DNA of 64,000 nt, taken from Prorocentrum cordatum. Taxonomy: Eukaryota. The DNA lies in assembly GCA_963575745.1 (NCBI GenBank), contig CAUYUJ010000068.1:1-64000 (forward strand), given 5' to 3'. The notes under the pieces were generated by a model. It was given only the letters and a program-made list of their open reading frames with translations. It was not told where the DNA came from and did no database searches. The translations under genes and the position numbers were made by a program. This document shows, piece by piece, positions 29,163-63,114 of the stretch. Within the stretch, counting starts at the first letter, position 1. Each line of letters opens with the position of its first letter.

Positions 29163-32100
29163 GAGCCGAAGAAAGACGCCTACAGGCCATTCACGCCAAG
29201 GTGCTGTACCAACCCGAGGTTACTGATAGTGCGCATAACGGCGCCAGGACTTTGGAGGACAGTTGCGGTAGAACACGATACACACGTCCACTCGGGTGAA
29301 ACTAAGACCGACACCTTCTGGACCGAGCTGAGCAATGTGACGCACAAATTCTACATCGGCCTCCTATTGATGTGCAGTGGTATCAGACTCCATCGCCGAC
29401 TACGGACAGAGGCTACAGGAGAACGGCGAGGACAAACGATTCCACGAGTACCTGGAGACACACAGCCTCACAGCCGTCAACACTGCAATCGAATGCGGCG
29501 GCCCCACTTACACATACAAGAACGGGGCCTGGAGAGAGCGCGTCGACTACGTCGTCATACCCACGAGCAACATGGACACGGTCCAAGAGGCGGCCAACAT
29601 CGACGCGATCGACACGGTCCAGGACGACGAAGACCACCTCCCTGTGATATACCAGAGGTACGTATTAACTTCCCATGCAGAGAGGTCAGCACCGAGGCTT
29701 GACTCCCAATGAATTTGCAAACCCAGACGACCAAGCTACATTCCGACAGGATCTAGACAAGATCGAATTCCACGAGTGGGAGGTGGATATCAGTGAGTAC
29801 GCCTACCAGCTCAGCAAGAACATGATGCAGGCCGCGGAGATAACATACAAACAGAAGGCAATACGCATACGCAAGCCCTACATCGCTGACAACACGTTCG
29901 CACTACTTCGGGTGCGGCGCGCATGGCAACGATCCCATCGGAACACGAAGTGAAACACACGCTACGGAGACCATAATTGCCACAACGAAACTGACATACC
30001 AACTAACGTAGGCGGCGATGCCCATGACACCGGCAACGCAGGCCATGAACGACTCGAGCACGCTGCTGAACTGAGTCAACACTGGTTTACCAGTGGTACA
30101 CCACCACGCAACACATGATGACTGCACTTAGCCATCTCGGCATTCCTACGCGAGTCCAAGGGCCAAGTGGTGAACAGGTTCTCAACACCTACGCGGACAC
30201 AACTACGGGGGCCACCGAGGACCTCGACGCCGCAGTGCAATAGAAGGGGGCTAACCAACTACTACGGTTCGGAGGAAGTCCACCGAGGATGATCACCGAG
30301 CACAGGTATACCGACGCCGATGGAGAACCAATCACCAACAAAGAGGCCCAAGCAGAGGCAATGTTGGACCGCTGCGCCATCACGGACCATCCCATCGTAC
30401 GACAACCTGATGAACGACTACAACAAGAATGCGGAGGAGGCGATGCGAGACCAGCCGCAACGGGAAACCCACCATCGGCAACATGATTCGCAAGAGCGAG
30501 CTCCAGGATGACTCCCAGTCCGCCAAGTCGAACAGACAAGGCGGACCCGACCTCATCACCGACGACATGTGCCGCACAGCCTGCAACCGGATGGCCAGGC
30601 TCTACCACCCTGTGCTGGTAAAAACGTCACTGACACCGGTCGAACCATCATCACACAAAGGAGGTTGGCAGGATGCATTCGCAAAGACGGCCATGCCACC
30701 ACAGGCAAGCATCTCGGCGAGAGGTGCATGATCCTACTCAACGGCGTGATCGCAAAGCATCGCCACAGGTCCATCAGGACCAAACTCAAGGAAGTCGCAG
30801 CTACGCTACTTCGAGACTCACAATGCGGAGCACGACCACATCGGAGCACCGATTTCGTCACGCATGCCACGTTGACCTGCACCAACATGCTCAAGACACA
30901 GGGGAGCAACGGAGCCCTCCTGTTCCTGGACTTGAAGGGCGCCTTCTACACCGTCGTCCTCGAGCTCATCCCAAATGACGAACACGACTCCAAAGACCTC
31001 TTCGACACACTGGACATACCCGAGGCCATGCCACTCATGCTCGCTGACGCCGTGCAAGGAACACCGTACATAGACAACAGCATCGGCGACGAACACTTGG
31101 CAATCTTACTATGGGATGCGCATGTGGACCTTTGGGCCACTACGATGGGATCCAAGAGAATCGCACCACCAAGAACTGGAACAAGACCAGGAACACTGAT
31201 GTCCGACTTCTCCGTTACCATAGCCTTCGCAAGGATCACCAAGGCGATCGCGGATGACATGATCGAGAACGGGATGCACTACGATATACCCCAACACAAC
31301 GACCACCAACCAATTCTTGCACAAGGAAGACTGTACCTGAGTGGGCAAGACGGAGGAGCCGCACTTACCGATGCCTCCTTCATTGACAACATGACGGCGT
31401 ACGCTGCCACATCCTCAGATGACCTGATCGACACTGCAACGACCTCACTTCAGATAGTCGAGTCCGTGGTTCGCGCCCACAGCATGCTACGCTAAGAAGA
31501 CGAAGACCGTGCTCCTGCTATCCTGGCTTAAATCGAGGAAAACCAAGGAACACCAAGCGAATGAAGGCACCACCATCAAGAGCGCCTACTTGGAGCAGAC
31601 CGTGAAGCTAATCAACACTCAGACCGCGCTCGGAACGGTCATCATACATCCACTGGACTAGTTGGGCCCGACATCACAAGAAGAGAAACCACAAGGCCAT
31701 GGTCAGCAGGGGCCCCTTACGCAAACAGACTCTCAAGATGCCGAATTTACCGACCTACAGGAAGGTCCTGCGCGCCAGGGGCGGGTTCCCAGTGCGGATC
31801 CGAAAAGTCCGCGCGGAGCGCCAATAGTTTATGTTTATGCGCCTTTTTCTTCTTCGATCAGTGGTGCACTCGATCCTCTCGTTCAACGACTGCGCTTGGA
31901 CCAATGTAACCGACGGCGACGCAGACAAATCCGCAGTGGAATGCGTGAAAAGGATACAAACAGGCCACCAAGCACCAAGCCAACCACGACCAAAACGAAT
32001 CTTCGTCCGGCCTTCAAGTCCTCAGCGACGCCAGCCGACCGACTACCTCCTGACATCTCGAGGAGTCCTGCATGGGCCTACCATCATACTTGGACGTCTT

Positions 32101-32560
32101 GACGAGGGCGCAAGACACAACACGACTTGGACTAACTACGAAGAACATTCAGGACATGCAATGGCTGTGCGACCACCTCAGCAGGAGGGCAAACCGACGT
32201 CCAACATAGACCTAGGCGAAGTGGTACGAGCGATCCGTGGGGAACCTCACCACTTTCGCGCAACAGTCAAGAAGGCAATCAGCAGATGCTTCCGACGGCA
32301 GCAGGATCGAACACACCAAGAGCGTTGGTACCTCGATCTCGAACCATACCAGAACACGGAGGAGATGCTGGTCTTACCGACCATGCCACCACCACTGCTG
32401 AAACCCAAACTCGTGTAGCACCAGTGCAACCCCATGGTCCTCAATATGGACGCATACTACGCCCACCTAGGCAAATGCCACAACTATAGAACACACCCAA
32501 CGAGATGGGCACAGGGAACACGTTGCAGAACATGAATCTCGGAGTATCACGCATACCATT
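29163..32560 (+). mobile_element. Decayed LINE ORF2 (APE C-terminal half plus reverse transcriptase), with many stops and frameshifts
   Basis: APE motifs PRLLIVRI, RVDYV and DHLPV; RT motifs QCGARPHRSTD, LFLDLKGAFYTV, GTRPG..SD and SFIDN (degenerate YxDD). Confidence 0.85.
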
Positions 32561-35720: not shown

Positions 35721-36404
35721 AGGTGTTTCGTTCCCGCCGGAGACAAGCCGCGGCGGCGCGGGTCCGCCCAGTGCTTCCCCCGCAGCTGCACCGAGGAGTG
35801 CTGCTGCCCCAGCGCCTGCCCCAGCGCAGCGGGGCAAGGGTGCGCGCTCGGGCGGCGCGCCCGGCGCGCTGGGCCCCGCTCTCCAGCGCGTCGGAAGAGC
35901 TCGATGCTGAGGCTCCTCGTCGTTCGAGCTCGATCGAGCTCGCTCCTCCTCCTCCTCCTCCTCCTCCTCCTCCTCCTCCTCCTCCCTCCTCCCTCCTCCG
36001 TCCTCCCTCCTCCCTCCTCCCTCCTCCCTCCTCCACCCTCCTCCCTCCTCCTCCTCCTCCTCCTTCTCCTCCTCTCCTCCTCCTCCTCATTCTCCTCCTC
36101 CCCCTCCTCCCTCCTCCCTCCTCCTCCTCCTCCTCCTCCTCCTCCTCCTCCTCCTCTTCCTCCTCCCCCTCCTCCCCCTCCCCGTTCTTCTCCTCCTCCC
36201 CCTCCTCCTCCTCCTCCTCCTCCTCCTCCTCCTCCTCCTCCTCCTCCTCCTCCTCCTCCTCCTCCTAATCGGAGTCGCGGCCCCAGCTGGCGAAGCGAGT
36301 CGCATCGTGGAGGCGGCCCTGCGTGCGCCCCCTCCCCCTCCTCGCCGGGCCCAGAAGGGGCCGCCGGAAATTCAAGCAGCTCTCGGGACGCGGAGCCGGC
36401 CCCT

Positions 36405-36419
36405 GGTGGGGCCCAGAGC

Positions 36420-36463
<44 letters not shown>

Positions 36464-36735
36464 GAGATAACGCGGCGCTCGGGACGCGAGGCCGGCCCCT
36501 GCTGGGGCCCAGGGCCCGGGTCGGCACGTCCCCGAGGGGGCTGTACGGAACCAGAATTTGCAGATCGGATCTGTGGGGGAACAAGGGCTCCCAACTTCGC
36601 GCTTCGTGCTGCGCGAAGCGCGAATTGCGAATAACTTCGTGCTCTCGCGCCGCCTCCCAGGGGAGAAGAGGAGGATGAATGATCGGAGCCGAACCGCGAA
36701 GCGCGAATAATTTCGCGCCCTCGAGGGCGCCCTTG
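36405..36735 (+). repeat. Dispersed ~320-bp repeat with a close copy at ~57710-58030 and partial copies at ~47055-47200 and ~60122-60190
   Basis: (GTC)n-AGAGATAACGCGGCGCT...TTTGCAGATCGGATCTGTGGGGGAACAAGGGCTCCCAACTTCGCG...GGAGCCGAACCGCGAAGCGCGAA is shared. Confidence 0.9.
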
Positions 36736-36779
36736 GGGAAGGAGGGGGGCTCTCGCGCCGGCAGACGACGACGATGACA

Positions 36780-36816
<37 letters not shown>

Positions 36817-37994
36817 ACACCGTCGTCTTCGTCGCTTGTGCTTCCAAGCGCGAGGCAGTGAGGGGGGACGTTGCGGGGGAACCAGCTCAGGGGGGAAACA
36901 TCGGGCTTGAATCGGGGATCCATCGCCGACAGATCGTCGTCGACGGGCCCCCGACAGCGAGACCCGCACGGTCCTAGGCGGGTTGCACTGTCAGGCCCCT
37001 GTCGACAATCCGTGGGCGATTGGGGGTCGTTCTGTCCCTCCTGAGCCTATCCCCCCCGCCCCAGCCAATGTTACCCTCGAAGGGAGTTTTTTTTTTTTTT
37101 TTTTTTTTTTGTTTTTTTTTTTTTTTTTTTTTTTCTCCGGGGGGGCCGACCTCATTGTTCGCATGTCACCAAATCAGGGCTGCGCCGCAGCGTGAGACGG
37201 AGTAGCGAGAGGCGGCTGTCAACTCGCACGCGACCGTGGGCAGAGTATTCCTCCGAGCCTTGGAACAAAGAGGTACATGAAATAAGCGAAGCGGCAGGGG
37301 AAGAAGGCGATGGGGGTGGGGGAGAGGGGAGGTAGGGAGTTGTCGTCGCAAGCGCGATGCTGCCAGAGCCTGCCTGGGAAGCGGACGTGGCCCAGCCTAG
37401 ACTCGGTGGGGGCTTCCGGCCGCCCCGCAGTCTTCTTCGGGACCAGCTCTGCAGAGTGGAAGGGGAGGAAGGTGGGGAGGGAGCGGGGGGAAGGGAGGGA
37501 GGCATTCAGGGAGAGAGTAGGGGGGAGGGGGGACGCTGGTGGGGGCGCGCTTTTGCCCCGGACGGCGACACCACTCAAATCCAGCAGTGTGCACCAGCGG
37601 GGACTACAGACAGCAATATGCACGAGAGGCTCCTTGAGAAGGAACCGAGGGGGGAGGATGCGGGAGGGGCGAGGGAAAGAGACAGGAGGGAGGCGAGAAG
37701 CGGGGGGGCAGGACTAGGACTATAGGACGGTGGCCTGCCTGCGCAGAGGCAGGCCCCAGGGAGGGGACAGGAGGATGGAGGAAGAGGCGAGGAACGGAGG
37801 ACTGGTTGGGAGGAGGGACAGCGTGATGAGGAAAGGTGGAGGAGGAGCAGGAGGAGGAGGAGGAGGAGGAGGAGGAGCAGGAGGAGGAGAGGAGAAACAG
37901 GAGGAGGAGGAGGAGGAGGAGGAGGAGGAGAAGGAGGAGGAGGAGGGCACGGCCCCAGAGGACGACCGACGACGGCGGACGACTCGTCACCTCC

Positions 37995-40900
37995 TCAAGG
38001 CAGCAACAGTGGCAGGCGGGGCCCGCCTGCGGAGCTGGATGAGGCGGGCTTTGGCCAGCTTCTCCAAACGCTCTCGCGGTGCTCTGACACGCGGGGCCAC
38101 CACTTAGCTTCATGGTAGCACGTGTAGCACGAATCAATATACAAGGCGACACTGATGAGCTGGGAGAGACCAAGGGGGAGAAGCAGGAAGAGAGAGGCGC
38201 GAGCAGAGGCAGAAGCGGAGGCAAACGAGGACGGGAGCGAAGGGAGAAGACAGCACACGGGCGAGAAGCAGGGACAGACAATAATGTGAAGCATGCAGTC
38301 GGCAGAGGCCATGTCACAAAATCTACAATTGAGAGTAACACCTCGGAACCGACGCGAGGTGCACCAGGAATTACAAAACGTGCGTATTACATTCGCTACA
38401 ACACAGGCAGGAGCATGTTTGCAAAGACGCTGGAGAGCAATATACATAAGATCAAGTTGGGCAGGGGATGGAGGCGAGCCGAACTTCTTAAGCCTTACCT
38501 CAAGAATCGACCGCAACGAAATCGGGGACAGAGCGAGGAGGGCGGACTCAGTCACGGCTTGAATCTTGGGGGGGCCGAAGGGCGGGGCGGTCGGGATGGA
38601 CGTGAGCTTACGAAAGTTGGTAATCATGGCGCACACGACTGACGACTTCCACACCTTGGACCATTTCCATACTACGAGCATGTTGTCCGCATCACTCTCA
38701 TCTTCGAAGAGGGCCCTGGCGTCGTCGAAAGCGGGCGACATGATCGCCGCTCTGTACATGGCTGCTCGACTTGCCGCCTCGAGAGAACGAGCCTGAGTCG
38801 GGAAACCCCAATCACGGAGCTGCTGCAGGAGGTTCTGGGGGAGACCATTGCTCGGGGCGTTGGTCACGCACTGCTGAGCTTTACGTGCAGCCTGAAGAGC
38901 CTGCTTAGTGGGGGGGTAGAACTGAGCAACACGCATCAGTACCGAGAAAGCCAGGAGGCTCACCATGAGAAGGGATTTGCATAACCCAGCCCCGGCATGT
39001 TTGATTTCATGAGCCCGCGAGATACACTTCATAGCAGGAGGACCCCAACTGGCGTTTCGACCATCTTCCCCAATATATACTCCAAGATACTTGCCTGCGC
39101 GCTGGAAAGTAAGGCACTCGGCGGTCCTCACACCAGGGGCGACCATTCTCTCACAGCACTGTTCCCGTGTCAGGTCGCCAAGCGGAACAATGACCGACTT
39201 CTCAAGGTGAATGTGAAGACCTGCAGCTGCACCGGCAATCTTTCATGCAGGTAAGAGACCACGGAAGGCGGAGAAGACATCGGCAGCGGCAACGCCGATG
39301 TCGTCCGCGAAAGCTGCTAAGCATGAGAGACGCCTGGGAATGCGGGCGAGCATGAAACGGATAAGCGGGTCAAGGGCGAGGCAGAAGATGGTACCTGAGA
39401 GCGGGCGTCCTTGCTTGATCCCACGAGAGGCTACGAAGGAGGCCTTGCGGATCCCATTGAAGTTGATGTTGATTTTAACGTCGTTGTATAACGCGTGCAC
39501 GACATTGATGACGAAGGAAGGAATACCCATGGCCCGAAGGACCCAGAAGATAAAACTGTGCAATAAACTAGGAAAAGCAGCCCGAACATCGTAATAAATG
39601 GTCCCCGCGTTTTTGGTGGCCGTACTGGGCAAACCAAGACACTGCCCTACTCTCGAGGTTGATAATATTCTCGTTCATGTAACGGCCAGCGATAAAACCT
39701 CGCTGATTGCCAAGCACAGTTTGGGCAGCGACCCCAGAGAAGGACCTGTTGAGGGCGACGGAGACCAGCTTGTTATCAGAGTTACCAAGGGTAATGGGGC
39801 GAGTAACCTCGGGCTTACGAATGATGCGCTGGGGGGTGTCATCTGGGTCGCTGCCCTTGGCGAGAGAGACGGCCATGCCATGGTTAAAACCGACGGGGGC
39901 GCTTCCATTCGCGAACATCTCGGAATAAAGCCCATAAAGAGTGTCGACAACTGCGGGCCCTCCCTTGGGATAACAACTGCACGGAATGCTGTCGGGGCCA
40001 GGGGCAGAGTCCGAAACCTTGGAAAGGAGGCAGGCAAACTCCTGAGGATCAAGCTTCCAGAGGATTCCAGGAGGGCAAGGTAGAACGAAATCCCTAAGCA
40101 GTTGTCGGTCCTCTATGGAGCAGTCGACACACGAATGCACTTGGCCCCAGTAGGCTGCGAGCTCGGTGGCGACGCACTCAGGATCTGTGATGGCCTTGCC
40201 AGTCGGATCCGAGACGCCAGATAGAGAAATGCGCCGATGCTTCCTTCCCCACGCTGTTTGGTATTTGTAGAGCTTGATTTTGACGCCACGCTTGCGGGAG
40301 TCAGAAACGGCTTGCTGCCCGACTTCGTTGATTTGCTGAGAGATGAGCTCGTGCTTCATTTCGTTCAGGTGGGAATGGAAGCTCCGAACGTCTAACCACA
40401 TGGCAGACTCTGGGTCGAGGAAGCGGCCCAGCACGGGGTAGGCCAGGACAGCCTTGCGCACCAGCCAGAGCTGCCCTCGCAGCGTGCCTCGAAGCGCTGA
40501 AAGAGACCATGCAATTTTCTCAGCCAGCGACTTGTTGGTCTGCTCAGCGCTGAAGTTAATGACATCCTTGCACGCCTGCACAAGGATGTCCTTGGTCTGC
40601 GAGTGCTTTTCGAACGGATCGTCCGAGAGCGGTCCCACCAAGGAAAGTAAATTACTGACAGCGACAGGAAACTGCGAATGTTTGGTGACCCACCTTGGAA
40701 CACGAAAACCACAGCTGGGCCCAGGGCTGAGCGTAAGACAAACGGGGGCATGGTCCGATAGTTTGCCGACCTTCGAGGCGGGCTCCAGGGTGAGGGCCTT
40801 GGGGTGGTATTCAAGTATGGTAGCGCTGAACATGTTTGTGTAACTACGATCGATACGGCTGTAACTTTGCACGACTTGAACTCCTTCCTCCTCCTGAGTC

Positions 40901-41711
40901 ACCCTGTGCGCGAAGGCGGGTTGCTCGACCTCGCACAGATCAGCGAAGCGCTGCTCGAAGAAAGCGGCGGCGTCGGCACTGGAGTAATGCACCGCGCCCG
41001 GAACATGGAAGCTGCCCTCTCCCGCCGCAGGAAAGTTGAAATCGCCTGAGACGAAGCCCGTAGCCACGGAGGGGGGAGAAGTGCGCGTCTGACAAGCATA
41101 AGCTGATGTTTCTGGTCATGAAGAGCGCGACAGGGATCGAGATGGATGTTGAGAAGCTGCAGCGCCCCACGGCTGCCCCCCAGCGCGAGAGACTGAATTC
41201 GGCCCTGTACGAGGACGGAGTAGCGACAGCATTGGAAATGACTTCGAAGATCAGGGTGCAGAAAAATGAGAGCACCTCCCGCAGACCTGCCATCGAAGAT
41301 GGACCCAATACCCCAAACGTCATGGACTTCAGAACACAGCCTCTGGAGGTCGAACTTGGTGCCTCTAGCTTCCTGAATGCAAACCACCTGGTACTTCTGG
41401 ACATAGGATACTAGGCGAGACATTTTGCTTTTGACGATGCCCAGAATCGAGGTGATGCCTCCAAAAAGCGATCGAGCGTGCCACGAAACGATACTCAAGT
41501 GAGACTCCCAGATAAACGGCGAGTGAGTCCAATCCCCAGGAAACGGAGAGAAGCAAGACGGCCCAAAGGGCGACGGTAAACAGGACCCACTCGACGAGGT
41601 CGAACCAGTAGAAGACCCAGACGAGCCAGAAGAGGAGGACGAGGCGGTCGAAGAGCTCAGACATCTAGTAGAGGAAGGCGACTGAGGGTAGGGAACACGC
41701 ATCCCAGCCAC
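37995..41711 (-). pseudogene. LINE ORF2 (endonuclease-reverse transcriptase), broken into four ORF segments
   Basis: APE: SIVSWHARSL, VCIQEARG, SGDFNF, RIDRSY, SDHAPV. RT: APGPDSIP, RPITLGN, QRGFIAGR, YDVRAAFPS, GIKQGRPLSG, AFADD, KYLG. C-terminal CRFC..D...HIIVC. Confidence 0.92.
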
Positions 41712-41747
41712 GATGGCTGGATCAGACCTGGTCGGCGAGGCACTCTT

Positions 41748-42686
41748 TCAAGACGAGCGCGCGGCTGTGATCATTGAGCTGGCCTGGTCAGCCGAGATCT
41801 GAAAGGTGGCGATGCCGACGGGGTGAGGAGAGATCTCGAACTGGCCGACGTCCTGCTCAGAAACTGAGAAGAGCTCGTGAACAACGTCGCTGACAGCGCA
41901 GAAGAGGATGCCCTTGAAACCGTTGACCCCGAGTTTGTGCGTGGCGTCGTTCCACTGACCAGTCTGCCGAAGGTGAGCATTGACCAGCTGCCAGATCTTT
42001 CCGAGGAACTTATTCTTGTGGCGAACGGAGGTCGGGGCGTCGCGGCGGCAGCGAAGCTGGACCTGTGTGTTGGAGTGGGAGTCGTTCCACAAAATGCCCT
42101 GGGCACGAGCGTGGCCGATGAAGGAGGGCGCGTCAACGTTGCTGGCGAACTGGATTGACTAGCTCTTGGCGGGATTGTGGCCCTTGATGACGATGCCTGC
42201 CTGCCTGATGTGCGTAGGCAAGCTCTGCACGAGGAGGTCGCCGTGCTGCTCAAGAGAGGCCTTGAGCATGGGTCTGGTGAAGCCGCCGACCCAGACTTTG
42301 AGCGGGTCGAACTCATCATCGTGTGATCGGCTAGTGCTGCTGCCCGCAGTAGACGGCGGCGTACCAGTACGGCGTCGCGAGGTGGGAGGACCAGAGCTGT
42401 CAGAACTGCCACTGGAGCGCGACGACTGAGACGACTCGATGGCGGCCATGCGCTGCTCCATCTGGATACGCAGAGTGGCGACGGCGGCAGCGTCCGAGGA
42501 GGTGGCGATGCGGGGCTCAATCGTGTTGATCCTCTGCGTGAGCGTAGCCATGTTCCTGTCGTGCGACATGATGCTCTCTTTGAGGGAGTCGAGCGCGGAC
42601 ATAGAGGACTCGACGGTGGCTAAACGCTGGTTGGCACCCCCTAGCTGCTGCAGGATCTGCTTGATGCCTTCCTCGACCGACGACAT
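41748..42686 (-). pseudogene. LINE ORF1 (coiled-coil-like N-terminus, possible RRM-like region), one in-frame stop at 42159
   Basis: ATG at 42686 (MSSVEEGIKQILQQL...), heptad-like stretch, then KVWVGGF. The same frame continues in track ORF 41748..42092, directly upstream of ORF2. Confidence 0.7.
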
Positions 42687-42816
42687 GGCGAGAACTGGGA
42701 GAGTGTCTGGAGACTGGGAGAAACAAAGACGGGAACTGGGAGAGTGACCGCCCAGGCACGACACCTGGGATGGCTCCGAACGGAGCTGCCCACTCAAATC
42801 GCGGATTGCCCTGCAA

Positions 42817-42853
42817 CTTGAGCCAAAATGGCTTGAGCCAAAATGGCTACGGA
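42817..42853 (-). other. Dinoflagellate spliced leader (22 nt, 42853-42832) plus tandem 15-nt relict SL (42831-42817)
   Basis: Minus strand reads TCCGTAGCCATTTTGGCTCAAG CCATTTTGGCTCAAG, an exact match to the DinoSL consensus DCCGTAGCCATTTTGGCTCAAG. Confidence 0.97.
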
Positions 42854-43759
42854 AGGAGGAGGAGGAGGAGGAGGAGGAGGAGGAGGAGGAGGAGGAGGAG
42901 GAGGAGGAGGAGGAGTATGTAGACGATGCGAAATGACACGCGTGCACCATGGCATAGTATGTCCAGGCCGAGGGGGAGGACCCGCTGGAGCCTCCAAGGG
43001 CCCCCGAGGACACTGCAGAACACCCTGATGGTGTTTTGCCTCTTTGGGTCGCGGGAGATGCCTCTGGTGATCTTGCCCTCCTCCTCCTTCTCCTTCTTTT
43101 TCTCCTCTTCCTCTTCCTTTTTCTCCTCTTCCTCCTCTTCCTCCTCTTCCTCCTTCGTTCTCCATCATCACTCCTCCTCCCTCCTCCCCCTCCTCCTCCT
43201 CCTCTCCTCCTCCTTTTCCTTTTCCTTCTCCTCCTCCTCCTCCTCCTTTTCCTCCTCCTCTTTCCTCCTCCTCTTGCTCCTCCTCCTCCCATTATGCTCC
43301 CCCTTTACCCCCTACTCAGCCTCCCCCCTCCTCATCATGCTCATCCCTTTACTCCACCTCCACCTCCTCCTCCTCCTCCTCACTCCCATTCATCTTCGTT
43401 CGTCCTGATACAGGTGGTGCCGCAGAGAGGTGGGAAGGAGGAGGAGGCGGGATGAGGGATAGCTGAGGGAGGAACTAGGGAGGGAATAGAAAGGACAAAG
43501 AGGAGGGAGGAGAAGGAGAAAGAGAGGGAGGGTGGAGTGATGCGGTGCTTGAGGTGGAGGATGTTGGAGGAAGGAAGTAAGGAGGAGGGAGAAGAAGGGG
43601 AGGAAGGGAGGGCGGGATAATCCCACCAGCCCTTTGGGCGTAGGTGGTCTAGGGAGGCCCCTGTACCAACCCCCTTCTTCCCCTTCGGGGAGGGTTTTAC
43701 CCCTCCCCAAACCCCCTCCCCTGGACCTGGAGGCGGCGAGGCGTTGGAGCGTCTAGGAT

Positions 43760-44110
43760 GGACCAAGACGGCTCCAAGAGGGACTCAGAGAGCCCAAGAT
43801 GACCTCCCAAATGGATCAACATAGTCTTAGATGCGGCAAGATGGCTCCCAAGATGCTCCAAGAGACCCCACGACCGCCCCAAGATGGCTCCAAGCGGCCA
43901 ACGAGCTCCCCAAGGAGGCCCCGAACAAGCCCAAATCCTGCTAAAACCTAAAAATGTGGTTTGATTTCTCGCCTTTTCGCTTCCCGTGGCCATCCGAGGC
44001 CTCAAGAAGCCCCCAAGATGGCCCACGAGGGCCCCAAGAGAGGCTCAAGAGAGCCCCAAGACGGCCCCAAGAGCGCCCCAAGAGGCGATTTCGTGGGCTC
44101 CCGGAGACTC
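43760..44110. repeat. CCCCAAGA-rich degenerate repeat family; similar tracts at ~3700-4020 and ~63420-63720
   Basis: Recurrent GGCCCCAAGA / CCCAAGATGGC motifs. Confidence 0.7.
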
Positions 44111-45330
44111 CGAGAGGCATCTTTGAAGCTTCTGGCTATTCTGTTCGCCGTCGTCTTCCTCTTCCTCATCCACGTATTCCTCCTCCCCTCTCCTCCCTCC
44201 TCCTCCTCCCTCCTCCTCCTCCTCCTCCTCCTCCGCCTCCTCCTCCTCCTCCTCCCTGCTACTATACTCATCCCTCCTCCCTTCAGCTCGTCCTGCGCCG
44301 TCTTCTTTCCTTCCTCCTCCTCCTCCTCCTCCTTCTCCTCCTCCTCCTCCTCCTCCTCCTCCTCCTCCTCCTCCTCCTCCTCTCCTCCCTTTGTTCTTCG
44401 GCATGCTCTCCCGCTGGCCTGATCACCTCAACTCCCCTGGGCATCGTTGCTGCATGGGCTGGTGGGGATACGCGACGCGTCAAACATTGAACGAGGAATC
44501 ACATCATTGAACCGGGAATCACTGGAGGAGGAGAGAGGGCTGGCGGAGGGAGGAGGAAGGCGTCCCAGGCACGGCGCGCCACAACTCCGACGCGTCCCCC
44601 AGAGAGAGAGAGAGAGAGAGAGGAAGAGAGAGAGAGAGAGCGAGAAAGCAAGAGCGAGAGCAAGCGCAAGAGCGAGCAGGAGACACCGACGCGGCGACGC
44701 CGTGCAGAAGACCGACCAGCACGACCGGAGAACGAGCGGCCCCCACGCGCGGGGCCGCTCGGGGGCAGAAGAGGCCCGGGCGGCCCCGAGCCTCCGGGGG
44801 CCCCGCGGGCGGGAACTGCCTTGCTGCAGCAGGGCAGCGGTGCGCGCCCGCTGGCGCAGACTGCAGCCGTGGGTGGAGACATACAGCCGGCCCCCATGTC
44901 ACAGGGATGCGGCGACGAGAAGGACGCCCAGGGCCTCGGAGGGCCCTTGCGGAGCTTGTCGGGCGGGGCGGGGCCGGCGAAGAGGTGGCCAAGGGTGGCC
45001 AAGTGTGGGCCGAAGGTGCCCTTCTCGTTGCACCGGCCCTGCAGACGTGCTGCAGCAAATTTCTGCGTGGATGTCTGCCCGAAGCGGCGAGCGACAAACG
45101 GAATGAAATTCGCGTGGATGTTTTTTGGTCCTCACTCCTGGCCAAAGAAATCCGGAACGACATTCTCCAGGACACTCCGGGCCCATCCTATCGTCTTCCG
45201 AACGAAATCCGCTCTGCGATATTGGCGCCATGACACGTAGGAGAATCGCCCATCCTTACCAGGCGGGTTCACTGTGCTCTCCATGCTTCGTTTTCATCCA
45301 GGTTGGAGGGTCGAACTTCGGGTTCGGATT

Positions 45331-63017: not shown

Positions 63018-63114
<97 letters not shown>

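What the first reader, a model, noticed from the sequence alone, without database searches (positions are those of the whole stretch)
37850..42915. Insertion in (TCC)n gives the SL-LINE a ready-made polypyrimidine tract
Seen: both ends of the element join (TCC)n on its sense strand. The 3' end runs straight into CCTCCTCC with no poly(A), and the 5' flank is ~60 nt of pure pyrimidine directly before the SL's internal AG. Established: some Tx1-clade APE retrotransposons are microsatellite-specific. Inference: oriented targeting of TCC repeats would rebuild a trans-splice acceptor (polypyrimidine plus AG) at each new site, coupling target choice to expression.
Basis: partly seen in the sequence, partly recalled or inferred. 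Interest (0 to 1): 0.8.

Follow-up and report, generated by a model that had tools for sequence, protein, structure and literature searches.

The report
Spliced-leader-capped LINE beside a TCC repeat
A decayed jumping gene (LINE) in a dinoflagellate-type genome carries the host's spliced leader at its front end and sits just behind a 65-base pyrimidine run, but a poly(A) tail 0.8 kb past its supposed end suggests that only the upstream TCC repeat is flank, and a family-wide preference for TCC repeats could not be tested.

Summary
The sequence features are real. On the minus strand a 65-nt pure-pyrimidine run, C(TCC)20-T-TCC, leads into GTAG of a complete 22-nt dinoflagellate spliced leader (SL). 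One truncated SL relict follows, then a two-ORF endonuclease/reverse-transcriptase LINE with two frameshifts and two in-frame stops. An imperfect (TCC)38 array starts 48 nt after the ORF2 stop, with no A-run at that junction.

It is followed by CTCC, the last four bases of the upstream array. My best reading (about 0.5) is one processed copy of an SL-capped, polyadenylated LINE mRNA (42853..37087). It inserted at the edge of (TCC)20, and the downstream TCC array lies inside its 3' region.

GGA/TCC-like arrays cover 4.7% of the window and 16.5% locally, so a single copy proves no targeting. No genome is held and no other copy with flanks could be fetched. Contigs of one sequencing run give only weak hints. 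The polypyrimidine-plus-AG arrangement exists at this copy. Oriented targeting that couples insertion to expression stays unproven (about 0.15-0.3). The Tx1 placement was not tested.

The parts
42855..42915 (-). 5' flank: C + perfect (TCC)20. With T42854 and TCC of the SL it forms a 65-nt pure-pyrimidine run (42915..42851). Its last 4 nt, CTCC (42858..42855), are the candidate upstream copy of a target-site duplication.
   Evidence: (TRF 42854-42915, 20.7 copies, 100% matches)
42854..42854 (-). One extra T between the array and SL nucleotide 1. It breaks the repeat phase.
   Evidence: read from the sequence
42832..42853 (-). Complete 22-nt dinoflagellate spliced leader TCCGTAGCCATTTTGGCTCAAG encoded in DNA. 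The internal acceptor AG is at 42848..42847.
   Evidence: exact 21-mer; 0 expected by chance. The SL sequence is as printed in PMC8045281 and PMC5585692 (passages read).
42817..42831 (-). Truncated SL relict CCATTTTGGCTCAAG. It is the mark of an earlier round of transcription, trans-splicing at the SL's AG and reverse transcription.
   Evidence: (15-nt unit, 2.1 copies). The relict logic is as described in PMC12014239 and PMC6050394 (passages read).
42687..42816 (-). 5' UTR of 130 nt.
41748..42686 (-). ORF1 of 312 codons, with an in-frame TAG at 42161..42159 and a terminal TGA at 41750..41748. It has an N-terminal long helix (residues 2-86, block pLDDT 53-89), then a Ser-rich linker, then a C-terminal part that was not modelled.
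   Evidence: Pfam gave only weak coiled-coil-like hits. P0167 is 84% identical.
37995..41486 (-). ORF2, made of an apurinic-type endonuclease (N-terminal half from about 41486), a reverse transcriptase (Pfam RVT_1 on 39674..39246) and a C-terminal Cys/His motif. It is broken by frameshifts near 41070 and near 39610 and by an in-frame TGA at 39245..39243. The stop is TGA at 37997..37995.
   Evidence: RVT_1, E = 1e-10; invariant GDxN, E, DR and SDH columns; relatives carry Exo_endo_phos + RVT_1; hhalign probability 97%
37947..37994 (-). 48 nt between the ORF2 stop and the TCC array.
37834..37946 (-). Imperfect (TCC)38 array.
   Evidence: (86% matches)
37135..37833 (-). 699 nt, mostly pyrimidine-rich (52-82% C+T per 100 nt) and unique within the window. 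It is a candidate distal 3' UTR or 3'-transduced flank.
37087..37134 (-). A23-C-A24 tract on the element's sense strand, the candidate poly(A) tail of the retrocopy.
37083..37086 (-). CTCC directly after the A-tract. It is the candidate downstream copy of a 4-nt target-site duplication (equal to 42858..42855).
   Evidence: CTCC frequency on this strand is 1.35% per position

Best explanation
This is a processed DNA copy of a full-length LINE messenger RNA from an organism that uses the dinoflagellate spliced leader. The RNA was trans-spliced (SL at its 5' end), polyadenylated, and copied into DNA by the LINE's own endonuclease/reverse-transcriptase machinery.

The single relict behind the full SL shows at least two such rounds. 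In the round before this one, the acceptor was the AG inside a DNA-encoded SL.

Most likely the copy runs from 42853 (SL nucleotide 1) to 37087 (end of A23-C-A24), about 5.77 kb. It would have entered at the 3' edge of a (TCC)20 array with the first nick in the (GGA)n strand, leaving a 4-nt duplication (CTCC). The imperfect TCC array just after ORF2 is then part of the transcript, either the family's 3' UTR or carried-along flank of the parent copy.

The copy itself is dead: two frameshifts and two in-frame stops.

Inferred, not shown: being promoter-less, such copies depend on read-through transcription from upstream plus trans-splicing at the SL's AG. Here the 65-nt pyrimidine run with no AG in it would make that AG the first one available. 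Whether the family prefers TCC arrays is open.
For: - SL and relict: exact matches, none expected by chance.
- LINE identity: RVT_1 at E = 1e-10. The endonuclease halves align to full-length relatives that carry Exo_endo_phos + RVT_1. HMMER found 1450 relatives at E <= 1e-3, with the best full-length ones 1016-1261 aa at about 30% identity. There is no second match of the element in the window, so no terminal repeats.
- Multicopy family: 216 contigs of run X1 lie on it, split 64/51/68/33 at >=99 / 95-99 / 90-95 / <90% identity. One 380-nt contig with 18 differences carries the same 5' UTR, relict and start of the SL. Other copies read 1 nt less at 39610 (3 contigs), one G more behind 41070 (1 contig) and C for T at 39243 (3 contigs). 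These are exactly the places where this copy's frame is broken (frames).
- Poly(A) end: only three loci with A/T runs of 12 nt or more exist in 64 kb, and one lies 0.86 kb after the ORF2 stop in the right orientation. It is followed by CTCC, the array's end. Another retrocopy-like A90 tail in the window shows that A-tailed insertions occur in this genome. A relative (L008) ends A-rich about 200 nt after its stop.
Against: - No other copy was seen across 37946..37087, so it is not shown that the family shares this stretch. My one read-laying run stopped at 37925.
- A 4-nt duplication is short. CTCC occurs at 1.35% of positions.
- The pyrimidine-rich zone continues from the array for several hundred nt. 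That also fits a native low-complexity locus into which the LINE jumped, with the A-tract belonging to a separate event.
- The extra T at 42854 is unexplained.
- If the array is carried-along parental flank, then the parent itself abutted a TCC array without a tail.
- The nearest protein fragments are filed in EukProt under a green-alga label. This conflicts with the SL-based host call and was left unresolved.
Confidence: 0.5

Rival explanations
1. The element ends at 37947 without a tail, and the family inserts specifically, in one orientation, into (TCC)n arrays. This would work by endonuclease preference for the (GGA)n strand and/or by pairing of a read-through UCC-repeat RNA end with the nicked target. 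Each new copy would then get a polypyrimidine tract in front of the SL's AG.
For: - Arrays of the same orientation touch both junctions, with no A-run at 37947.
- The orientation-specific background is only about 2% of the window.
- None of the other roughly 36 array-like intervals in the window is linked to LINE ends, so the arrays are not simply LINE tails.
- Weak hints come from run X1. One contig joins position 38177 through 24 other letters to a GGA run. One contig has a GGA run, 9 letters, then a 5'-shortened SL.
- Target-specific APE-type LINEs, some aimed at microsatellites, are known in the Tx1 and R1 clades (PMC4640811, introduction read).
Against: - It rests on one copy. Local array density is 16.5%.
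- The A-tract plus CTCC downstream has a simpler reading.
- The X1 junction contigs rest on 21-letter sides. It is not shown that they belong to the LINE, and the tool skipped the 5' junction repeat.
- One X1 contig joins SL-relict sequence directly to CCC(TCC)n, which fits the array being part of the mobile unit.
- Relatives fetched from metagenomes show no TCC/GGA tract at their ends: 0 of 65 loci within about 30 nt of an ORF2-proximal end, and only L042 holds any GGA tract. These share only about 30% protein identity.
Confidence: 0.25
2. Chance. An ordinary, non-specific LINE copy landed in one of the very abundant GGA/TCC arrays. The pyrimidine tract before the SL's AG is incidental and has no bearing on expression.
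For: - There are 72 perfect tracts in 64 kb, with both orientations equally common (37 and 35).
- Array-like sequence makes up 16.5% of the surrounding 4 kb.
- The copy is dead.
- Three other DNA-encoded SLs (L001, L113, L115) have no pyrimidine tract upstream.
Against: Under the short-element reading, both junctions fall in same-orientation arrays, which has about a 2% chance. Under the long-element reading the 5' junction still sits exactly at an array edge, with the first nick inside (GGA)n.
Confidence: 0.2
3. Two events. The 699 nt plus A-tract (37833..37087) is a separate, 5'-truncated retrocopy of another RNA that entered the same array. The LINE entered the array independently and has no tail.
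For: - The stretch has no similarity to anything else in the window.
- CTCC after the A-tract would also be expected for any insertion near the array's end.
Against: It needs two insertions in one array in the same orientation. It also leaves the LINE without the A-tail that the other retrocopy-like tails in this window have.
Confidence: 0.05

Closest known systems
DinoSL-tagged retrogenes / recycled processed cDNAs of dinoflagellates (Slamovits and Keeling 2008, as cited in PMC6050394; Song et al. 2017, PMC5585692; PMC12014239)
   Same: There is a DNA-encoded full SL followed by a relict that starts at CCATTTTGG. That is trans-splicing at the AG inside an SL that had itself been copied into DNA, and it implies repeated retroposition.
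   Different: Here the tagged unit is the autonomous LINE itself (ORF1 plus an endonuclease/RT ORF2), not a host gene. The papers I read call the retroposition machinery unknown, or favour LTR elements (PMC6050394 and PMC5585692, passages). They note only that 'RNA-dependent DNA replication' genes are enriched among SL-tagged genes.
Microsatellite-specific APE-type non-LTR retrotransposons (Tx1 and R1 clades; Kojima and Fujiwara 2004, as cited in PMC4640811)
   Same: It is an endonuclease-bearing LINE found in a simple-repeat array, with no A-run at the proximal 3' junction.
   Different: Specificity is defined by many independent copies in the same target, and only one copy was seen here. Clade placement was not done. 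A poly(A) tract downstream suggests an ordinary A-tailed element.
SL-gene-targeting LINEs (the CRE/SLACS/CZAR group and NeSL-1; 'spliced leader exons' are listed as targets in PMC4640811; the element names are recalled)
   Same: They too associate a non-LTR element with spliced-leader sequence.
   Different: Those elements have a restriction-like endonuclease and insert into SL RNA genes. Here the SL sits at the element's own 5' end because its mRNA was trans-spliced, and the flank is a microsatellite, not an SL gene.
Human-type L1 (ORF2p structures 8C8J, 8UW3, 8SXT)
   Same: The layout is ORF1 followed by APE-RT-Cys-rich ORF2. An A-tail and a short target-site duplication are likely. 3' transduction is a possible source of the distal 3' region.
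   Different: Sequence similarity is only marginal (E = 0.03-0.09). There is no internal promoter evidence, and the 5' end is a spliced leader.
Trypanosomatid L1Tc/ingi with the Pr77 internal promoter (PMC1874656, abstract in a search listing)
   Same: It is a LINE living in a host whose mRNAs are all trans-spliced.
   Different: L1Tc makes unspliced transcripts from its own promoter. This element's copies show that its RNA did receive the SL.

Membership tests
APE-type non-LTR retrotransposon (LINE) | Reverse transcriptase domain | tested here: met
   Pfam RVT_1 at E = 1e-10 on 39674..39246. The RT motif blocks align with 16 relatives.
APE-type non-LTR retrotransposon (LINE) | N-terminal apurinic-type (EEP) endonuclease in the same ORF | tested here: met
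   Pfam found nothing on the two broken halves. The N-terminal half aligns to the relatives' profile at probability 97%. The C-terminal half keeps the invariant G-D-x-N, E, D-R and S-D-H columns. Of the 4 relatives scanned, P0011, P0016 and P0022 score Exo_endo_phos above cut-off and P0015 scores RVT_1 only.
APE-type non-LTR retrotransposon (LINE) | No long terminal repeats | tested here: met
   blastn of 37700..43000 against the window gives only the self match.
DinoSL-tagged retrocopy | DNA-encoded SL at the 5' end, with relicts truncated at the SL's internal AG | tested here: met
   An exact 22-mer plus an exact 15-nt relict.
DinoSL-tagged retrocopy | Poly(A) at the 3' end and a target-site duplication | tested here: inconclusive
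   A23-C-A24 lies at 37134..37087 and CTCC stands on both sides. It is not shown that the tract belongs to this copy.
Target-specific (microsatellite) LINE | Many independent copies in the same repeat, same orientation, above background | not testable with these tools
   No genome is held. There is no second copy in the window. No close copy with flanks was found in any collection. Only ambiguous junction contigs are available.
Target-specific (microsatellite) LINE | 3' end joins the target repeat directly, without an A-tail | tested here: inconclusive
   This holds at 37947, but an A-tract 0.8 kb downstream offers another 3' end.
Tx1 clade | RT/APE phylogeny with reference elements of the Tx1, L1, R1 and other clades | not tested
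   No labelled reference sequences were available in the tools. The only named structural relatives are human L1 ORF2p, at E = 0.03-0.09.
L1-like ORF1p (coiled coil + RRM + C-terminal domain) | Fold of ORF1 | tested here: inconclusive
   The single-sequence model has mean pLDDT 44.6. Only the N-terminal helix (2-86) is confident. The RRM was guessed from a VWVGGF-like motif and is not shown.

The most novel reading that the evidence does not exclude
A promoter-less LINE family of a dinoflagellate lives entirely on the host's trans-splicing. Its DNA copies carry the spliced leader as a portable acceptor. Its endonuclease nicks the (GGA)n strand of TCC arrays in one orientation. Each new copy is therefore born with a long, AG-free polypyrimidine tract in front of the SL's internal AG, so target choice directly sets up the next round of expression. 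The same machinery would then be the long-sought source of the mass retroposition of SL-tagged genes in dinoflagellates.
Probability: 0.15. Interest if true: 0.85.

Novelty: new variant of a known kind. Interest (0 to 1): 0.45.

Why it matters
Dinoflagellate genomes are full of SL-tagged retrogenes. Yet the papers I read say it is unknown which reverse-transcribing element makes them (PMC6050394 and PMC5585692, passages).

An autonomous LINE whose own copies carry a full SL plus a relict shows three things:
- LINE mRNA is trans-spliced.
- A LINE-type machinery copies SL-capped RNA to its very 5' end.
- SL-bearing DNA copies are re-expressed through the SL's internal AG.

That makes this family a concrete candidate for the retroposition engine.

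The narrower claim is that TCC-array targeting rebuilds a splice acceptor. If true, it would be a new way for a mobile element to tie insertion-site choice to its own expression. It is directly testable on the assembly this window came from.

Tried and rejected
**Whole-genome search.** None is held.

**Other copies in the window.**
- None by blastn or tblastn.
- No other array is linked to the LINE's ends.

**Earlier notes of this scan.** Nothing found.

**Metagenome scans.**
- The window protein gave 80 pattern matches and 0 relatives.
- The 5-sequence alignment gave 65 loci, all distant (22-46% identity to P0011). None had a TCC/GGA tract at an element end. Only L001 had an SL, with a non-pyrimidine flank.
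- L001's SL-tagged ORF is unrelated to ORF1.

**Viral contigs.** Two protein scans found nothing.

**Prokaryote genomes.** The 20-mer hit one AT-rich bacterial contig, read as a chance match.

**Protein look-ups meant to see flanks through read-through ORFs.** They returned only internal fragments.

**Sequencing runs.**
- No RNA holder was listed.
- The read-laying tool skipped the repeat at 42845-42880, so the 5' junction could not be judged.

**Protein characterisation.**
- The ORF1 fold without an alignment gave a poor model.
- PDB by sequence gave only marginal L1 ORF2p hits.
- The Atlas confirmed only an APE + RT type.

**Literature.**
- Five searches for an SL-tagged LINE or TCC targeting found no such description.
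- The searches cover only the held open-access library.
- I did not open any supplements.

Full report
**What is in the sequence**

The element lies on the minus strand, and all strand statements below use its sense strand. From I read:
- a pure-pyrimidine run of 65 nt (42915..42851), made of C, a perfect (TCC)20, one T, and the TCC that begins the spliced leader;
- then G-T-A-G, with the AG at 42848..42847.

Bases 42853..42832 are the complete 22-nt dinoflagellate spliced leader. The truncated relict CCATTTTGGCTCAAG follows at 42831..42817. Both are exact, and the 21-mer had no chance match in 100 shuffles. Tandem Repeats Finder reports the upstream array as 20.7 perfect units and the SL/relict pair as a 15-nt unit of 2.1 copies.

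A full SL followed by a relict that starts at CCATTTTGG is the published signature of a processed cDNA whose parent already had an SL in its DNA. That parent was trans-spliced at the AG inside the SL (PMC12014239 and PMC6050394, passages read).

**The element**

The order along the sense strand is as follows.
- A 130-nt 5' UTR.
- ORF1 (42686..41751), 312 codons with one in-frame TAG.
- A Ser-rich spacer.
- ORF2 (about 41486..37998).

ORF2 is an apurinic-type endonuclease plus reverse transcriptase.
- Pfam RVT_1 scores E = 1e-10 on the middle piece.
- The N-terminal endonuclease half aligns to a profile of full-length relatives at probability 97%.
- The C-terminal half keeps the invariant catalytic columns.
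- Of four relatives scanned, three (P0011, P0016, P0022) score Exo_endo_phos and RVT_1 above Pfam cut-offs. The fourth (P0015) scores RVT_1 only.

An exhaustive HMMER search found 1450 relatives at E <= 1e-3. The best full-length ones are 1016-1261 aa at about 30% identity, on 4-5-kb metagenome contigs. There are no terminal repeats.

This copy is broken. It has frameshifts near 41070 and 39610 and in-frame stops at 42161..42159 and 39245..39243.

**The family**

Contigs of one public run (X1) show a multicopy, diverged family. In all, 216 contigs lie on the element, split 64/51/68/33 at >=99, 95-99, 90-95 and <90% identity.

Other copies differ at three of the four places where this copy is broken:
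- one base fewer at 39610 (3 contigs);
- an added G behind 41070 (1 contig);
- C for T at 39243 (3 contigs).

By the frame arithmetic, each difference keeps the frame open. The family therefore has, or recently had, intact members.

A 380-nt contig with 18 differences carries the same 5' UTR, relict and beginning of the SL. The SL tag is thus not private to this copy.

The closest protein fragments (57-89% identity) are filed in EukProt under a green-alga label. That label conflicts with the SL, and I left it unresolved.

The ORF2 stop is at 37997..37995. After 48 nt an imperfect (TCC)38 array starts (37946..37834; 86% matches), and there is indeed no A-run at that junction.

- After 699 mostly pyrimidine-rich bases comes an A23-C-A24 tract (37134..37087).
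- A/T runs of 12 nt or more occur at only three loci in the whole window, all as A on this strand. One of them, A90 at 63112..63023, looks like the tail of another retrocopy.
- The four bases after the A-tract are CTCC, the same as the last four bases of the upstream (TCC)20. CTCC occurs at 1.35% of positions on this strand.

An SL at one end, poly(A) at the other and a short duplication of the target is what a processed copy of a dinoflagellate mRNA should look like. [quoted passage not shown]

My best reading, at about 0.5, is therefore one retrocopy from 42853 to 37087. It inserted at the edge of the (TCC)20 array, with the first nick inside the (GGA)n strand. In that reading the downstream TCC array is internal, either the family's 3' UTR or carried-along flank of the parent. 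I could not test this. My single read-laying run ended at 37925.

**Is the TCC flank more than chance?**

Perfect GGA/TCC tracts of 4 or more units number 72 in 64 kb (37 GGA, 35 TCC). Array-like sequence covers 4.7% of the window outside the element, about 2% per orientation. It covers 16.5% of the 4 kb around the element.

A single copy in such an array is therefore a 2-8% event. That is suggestive but no proof, and it was picked out after the fact. None of the other array-like intervals in the window is joined to the LINE's head or tail. The arrays are therefore not simply LINE tails.

Three junction contigs of X1 touch GGA runs:
- one variant 3' end joined through 24 letters;
- one 5'-shortened SL, 9 letters from a GGA run;
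- one SL relict joined directly to CCC(TCC)n.

Each rests on about 21 letters, and it is not shown that they belong to the LINE. The tool also skipped the 5' repeat. The third contig fits the array being part of the mobile unit better than it fits targeting.

**The wider test I could not make**

No genome is held. Two metagenome scans, three viral-contig scans and one prokaryote-genome scan gave no close copy with flanks. The one 20-mer hit is a chance match in a bacterial contig.

The 65 distant relatives show no TCC/GGA tract at their ends. The three other DNA-encoded SLs I could read in non-viral, GC-rich DNA (L001, L113, L115) have no pyrimidine tract upstream. A polypyrimidine flank is therefore not a general feature of SL-tagged retrocopies.

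**How it most likely works**

Shown: the LINE's RNA received the SL, was copied to its very 5' end, and in the previous round was re-expressed through the SL's internal AG.

Inferred:
- Copies have no promoter of their own. They depend on transcription reading in from upstream, followed by trans-splicing.
- At this copy, the first AG after 65 nt of A- and G-free sequence is the SL's AG.
- The nearest upstream adenines (42916-42920) could serve as branch points about 70 nt away.

Not shown:
- that a pyrimidine tract is needed in dinoflagellates (one search found no paper on this);
- that this copy is transcribed (no RNA holder was listed);
- that the family chooses TCC arrays.

**Comparison and novelty**

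The SL/relict logic is known for host retrogenes. In five full-text searches and the passages I read, I found no description of an autonomous LINE carrying it, and none of TCC-array targeting. The authors state that the retroposition machinery is unknown.

Target-specific APE-type LINEs in the Tx1 and R1 clades, with microsatellites among their targets, are established (PMC4640811, introduction). Membership of this element in either clade was not tested, and target specificity was not testable.

I rate it a new variant of a known kind. My figures are:
- about 0.15 that targeting also couples to expression;
- overall interest 0.45.

Noticed in passing
L067-L146 (IMG/VR viral contigs): The exact 21-nt DinoSL occurs in 119 stretches of viral contigs. 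Among 84 distinct sites in the 80 loci fetched, 80 lie in AT-rich loci (GC < 0.40), mostly giant-virus MAG bins. An AAAATTGA-like motif lies upstream in 77 sites, and in 73 of these it sits 48-50 nt before the SL (69 match AAAATTGA strictly). The base before the 21-mer is A in 78 of 83. This reads as giant viruses that encode the host's spliced leader behind an early-promoter-like motif (the motif's meaning is recalled) at the start of many genes. One search listing showed no title on this.
   Followed up: partly
window 63023-63112 (minus strand): A pure A90 tract follows a body rich in CTCTTGGGGCC-like repeats. It looks like the tail of a very young retrocopy whose 5' end lies beyond the window.
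   Followed up: partly
window about 29300-32400 (plus strand): An old, lower-GC, heavily broken reverse-transcriptase remnant. It gives a weak RVT_1 hit (E = 1.5e-4) on 30512-31492 and is unrelated at sequence level to the studied LINE.
   Followed up: partly
window 36000-45000: GGA/TCC arrays switch strand in blocks around the element. On the plus strand: TCC at 36001-36266, purine-rich at 37135-37946 and 42854-42915, then TCC again at 43077-43386 and 44178-44388. Array-like sequence makes up 16.5% of this neighbourhood.
   Followed up: partly
L022:207-3004: Five direct copies of an SL-like 15-mer with two mismatches (CCATTTGTGCTCAAG) sit at uneven spacings of about 570-1035 nt in a 39-kb, GC 0.45 metagenome contig. 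This may be an SL RNA gene array of another protist.
   Followed up: no
L001:2790-3526: In a metagenome contig, an SL relict with one mismatch, directly followed by an ATG-led ORF, sits about 150 nt after the stop of a related LINE ORF2. There is no repeat or A-run between them. That ORF is unrelated to this element's ORF1.
   Followed up: partly
proteins P0001, P0010, P0031, P0075, P0167: The closest relatives of this LINE's proteins (57-89% identity) are filed in EukProt under a prasinophyte green-alga label. Yet the element carries the dinoflagellate SL, and run X1 holds SL words at very high depth. The label and the biology disagree. I did not pursue this.
   Followed up: no
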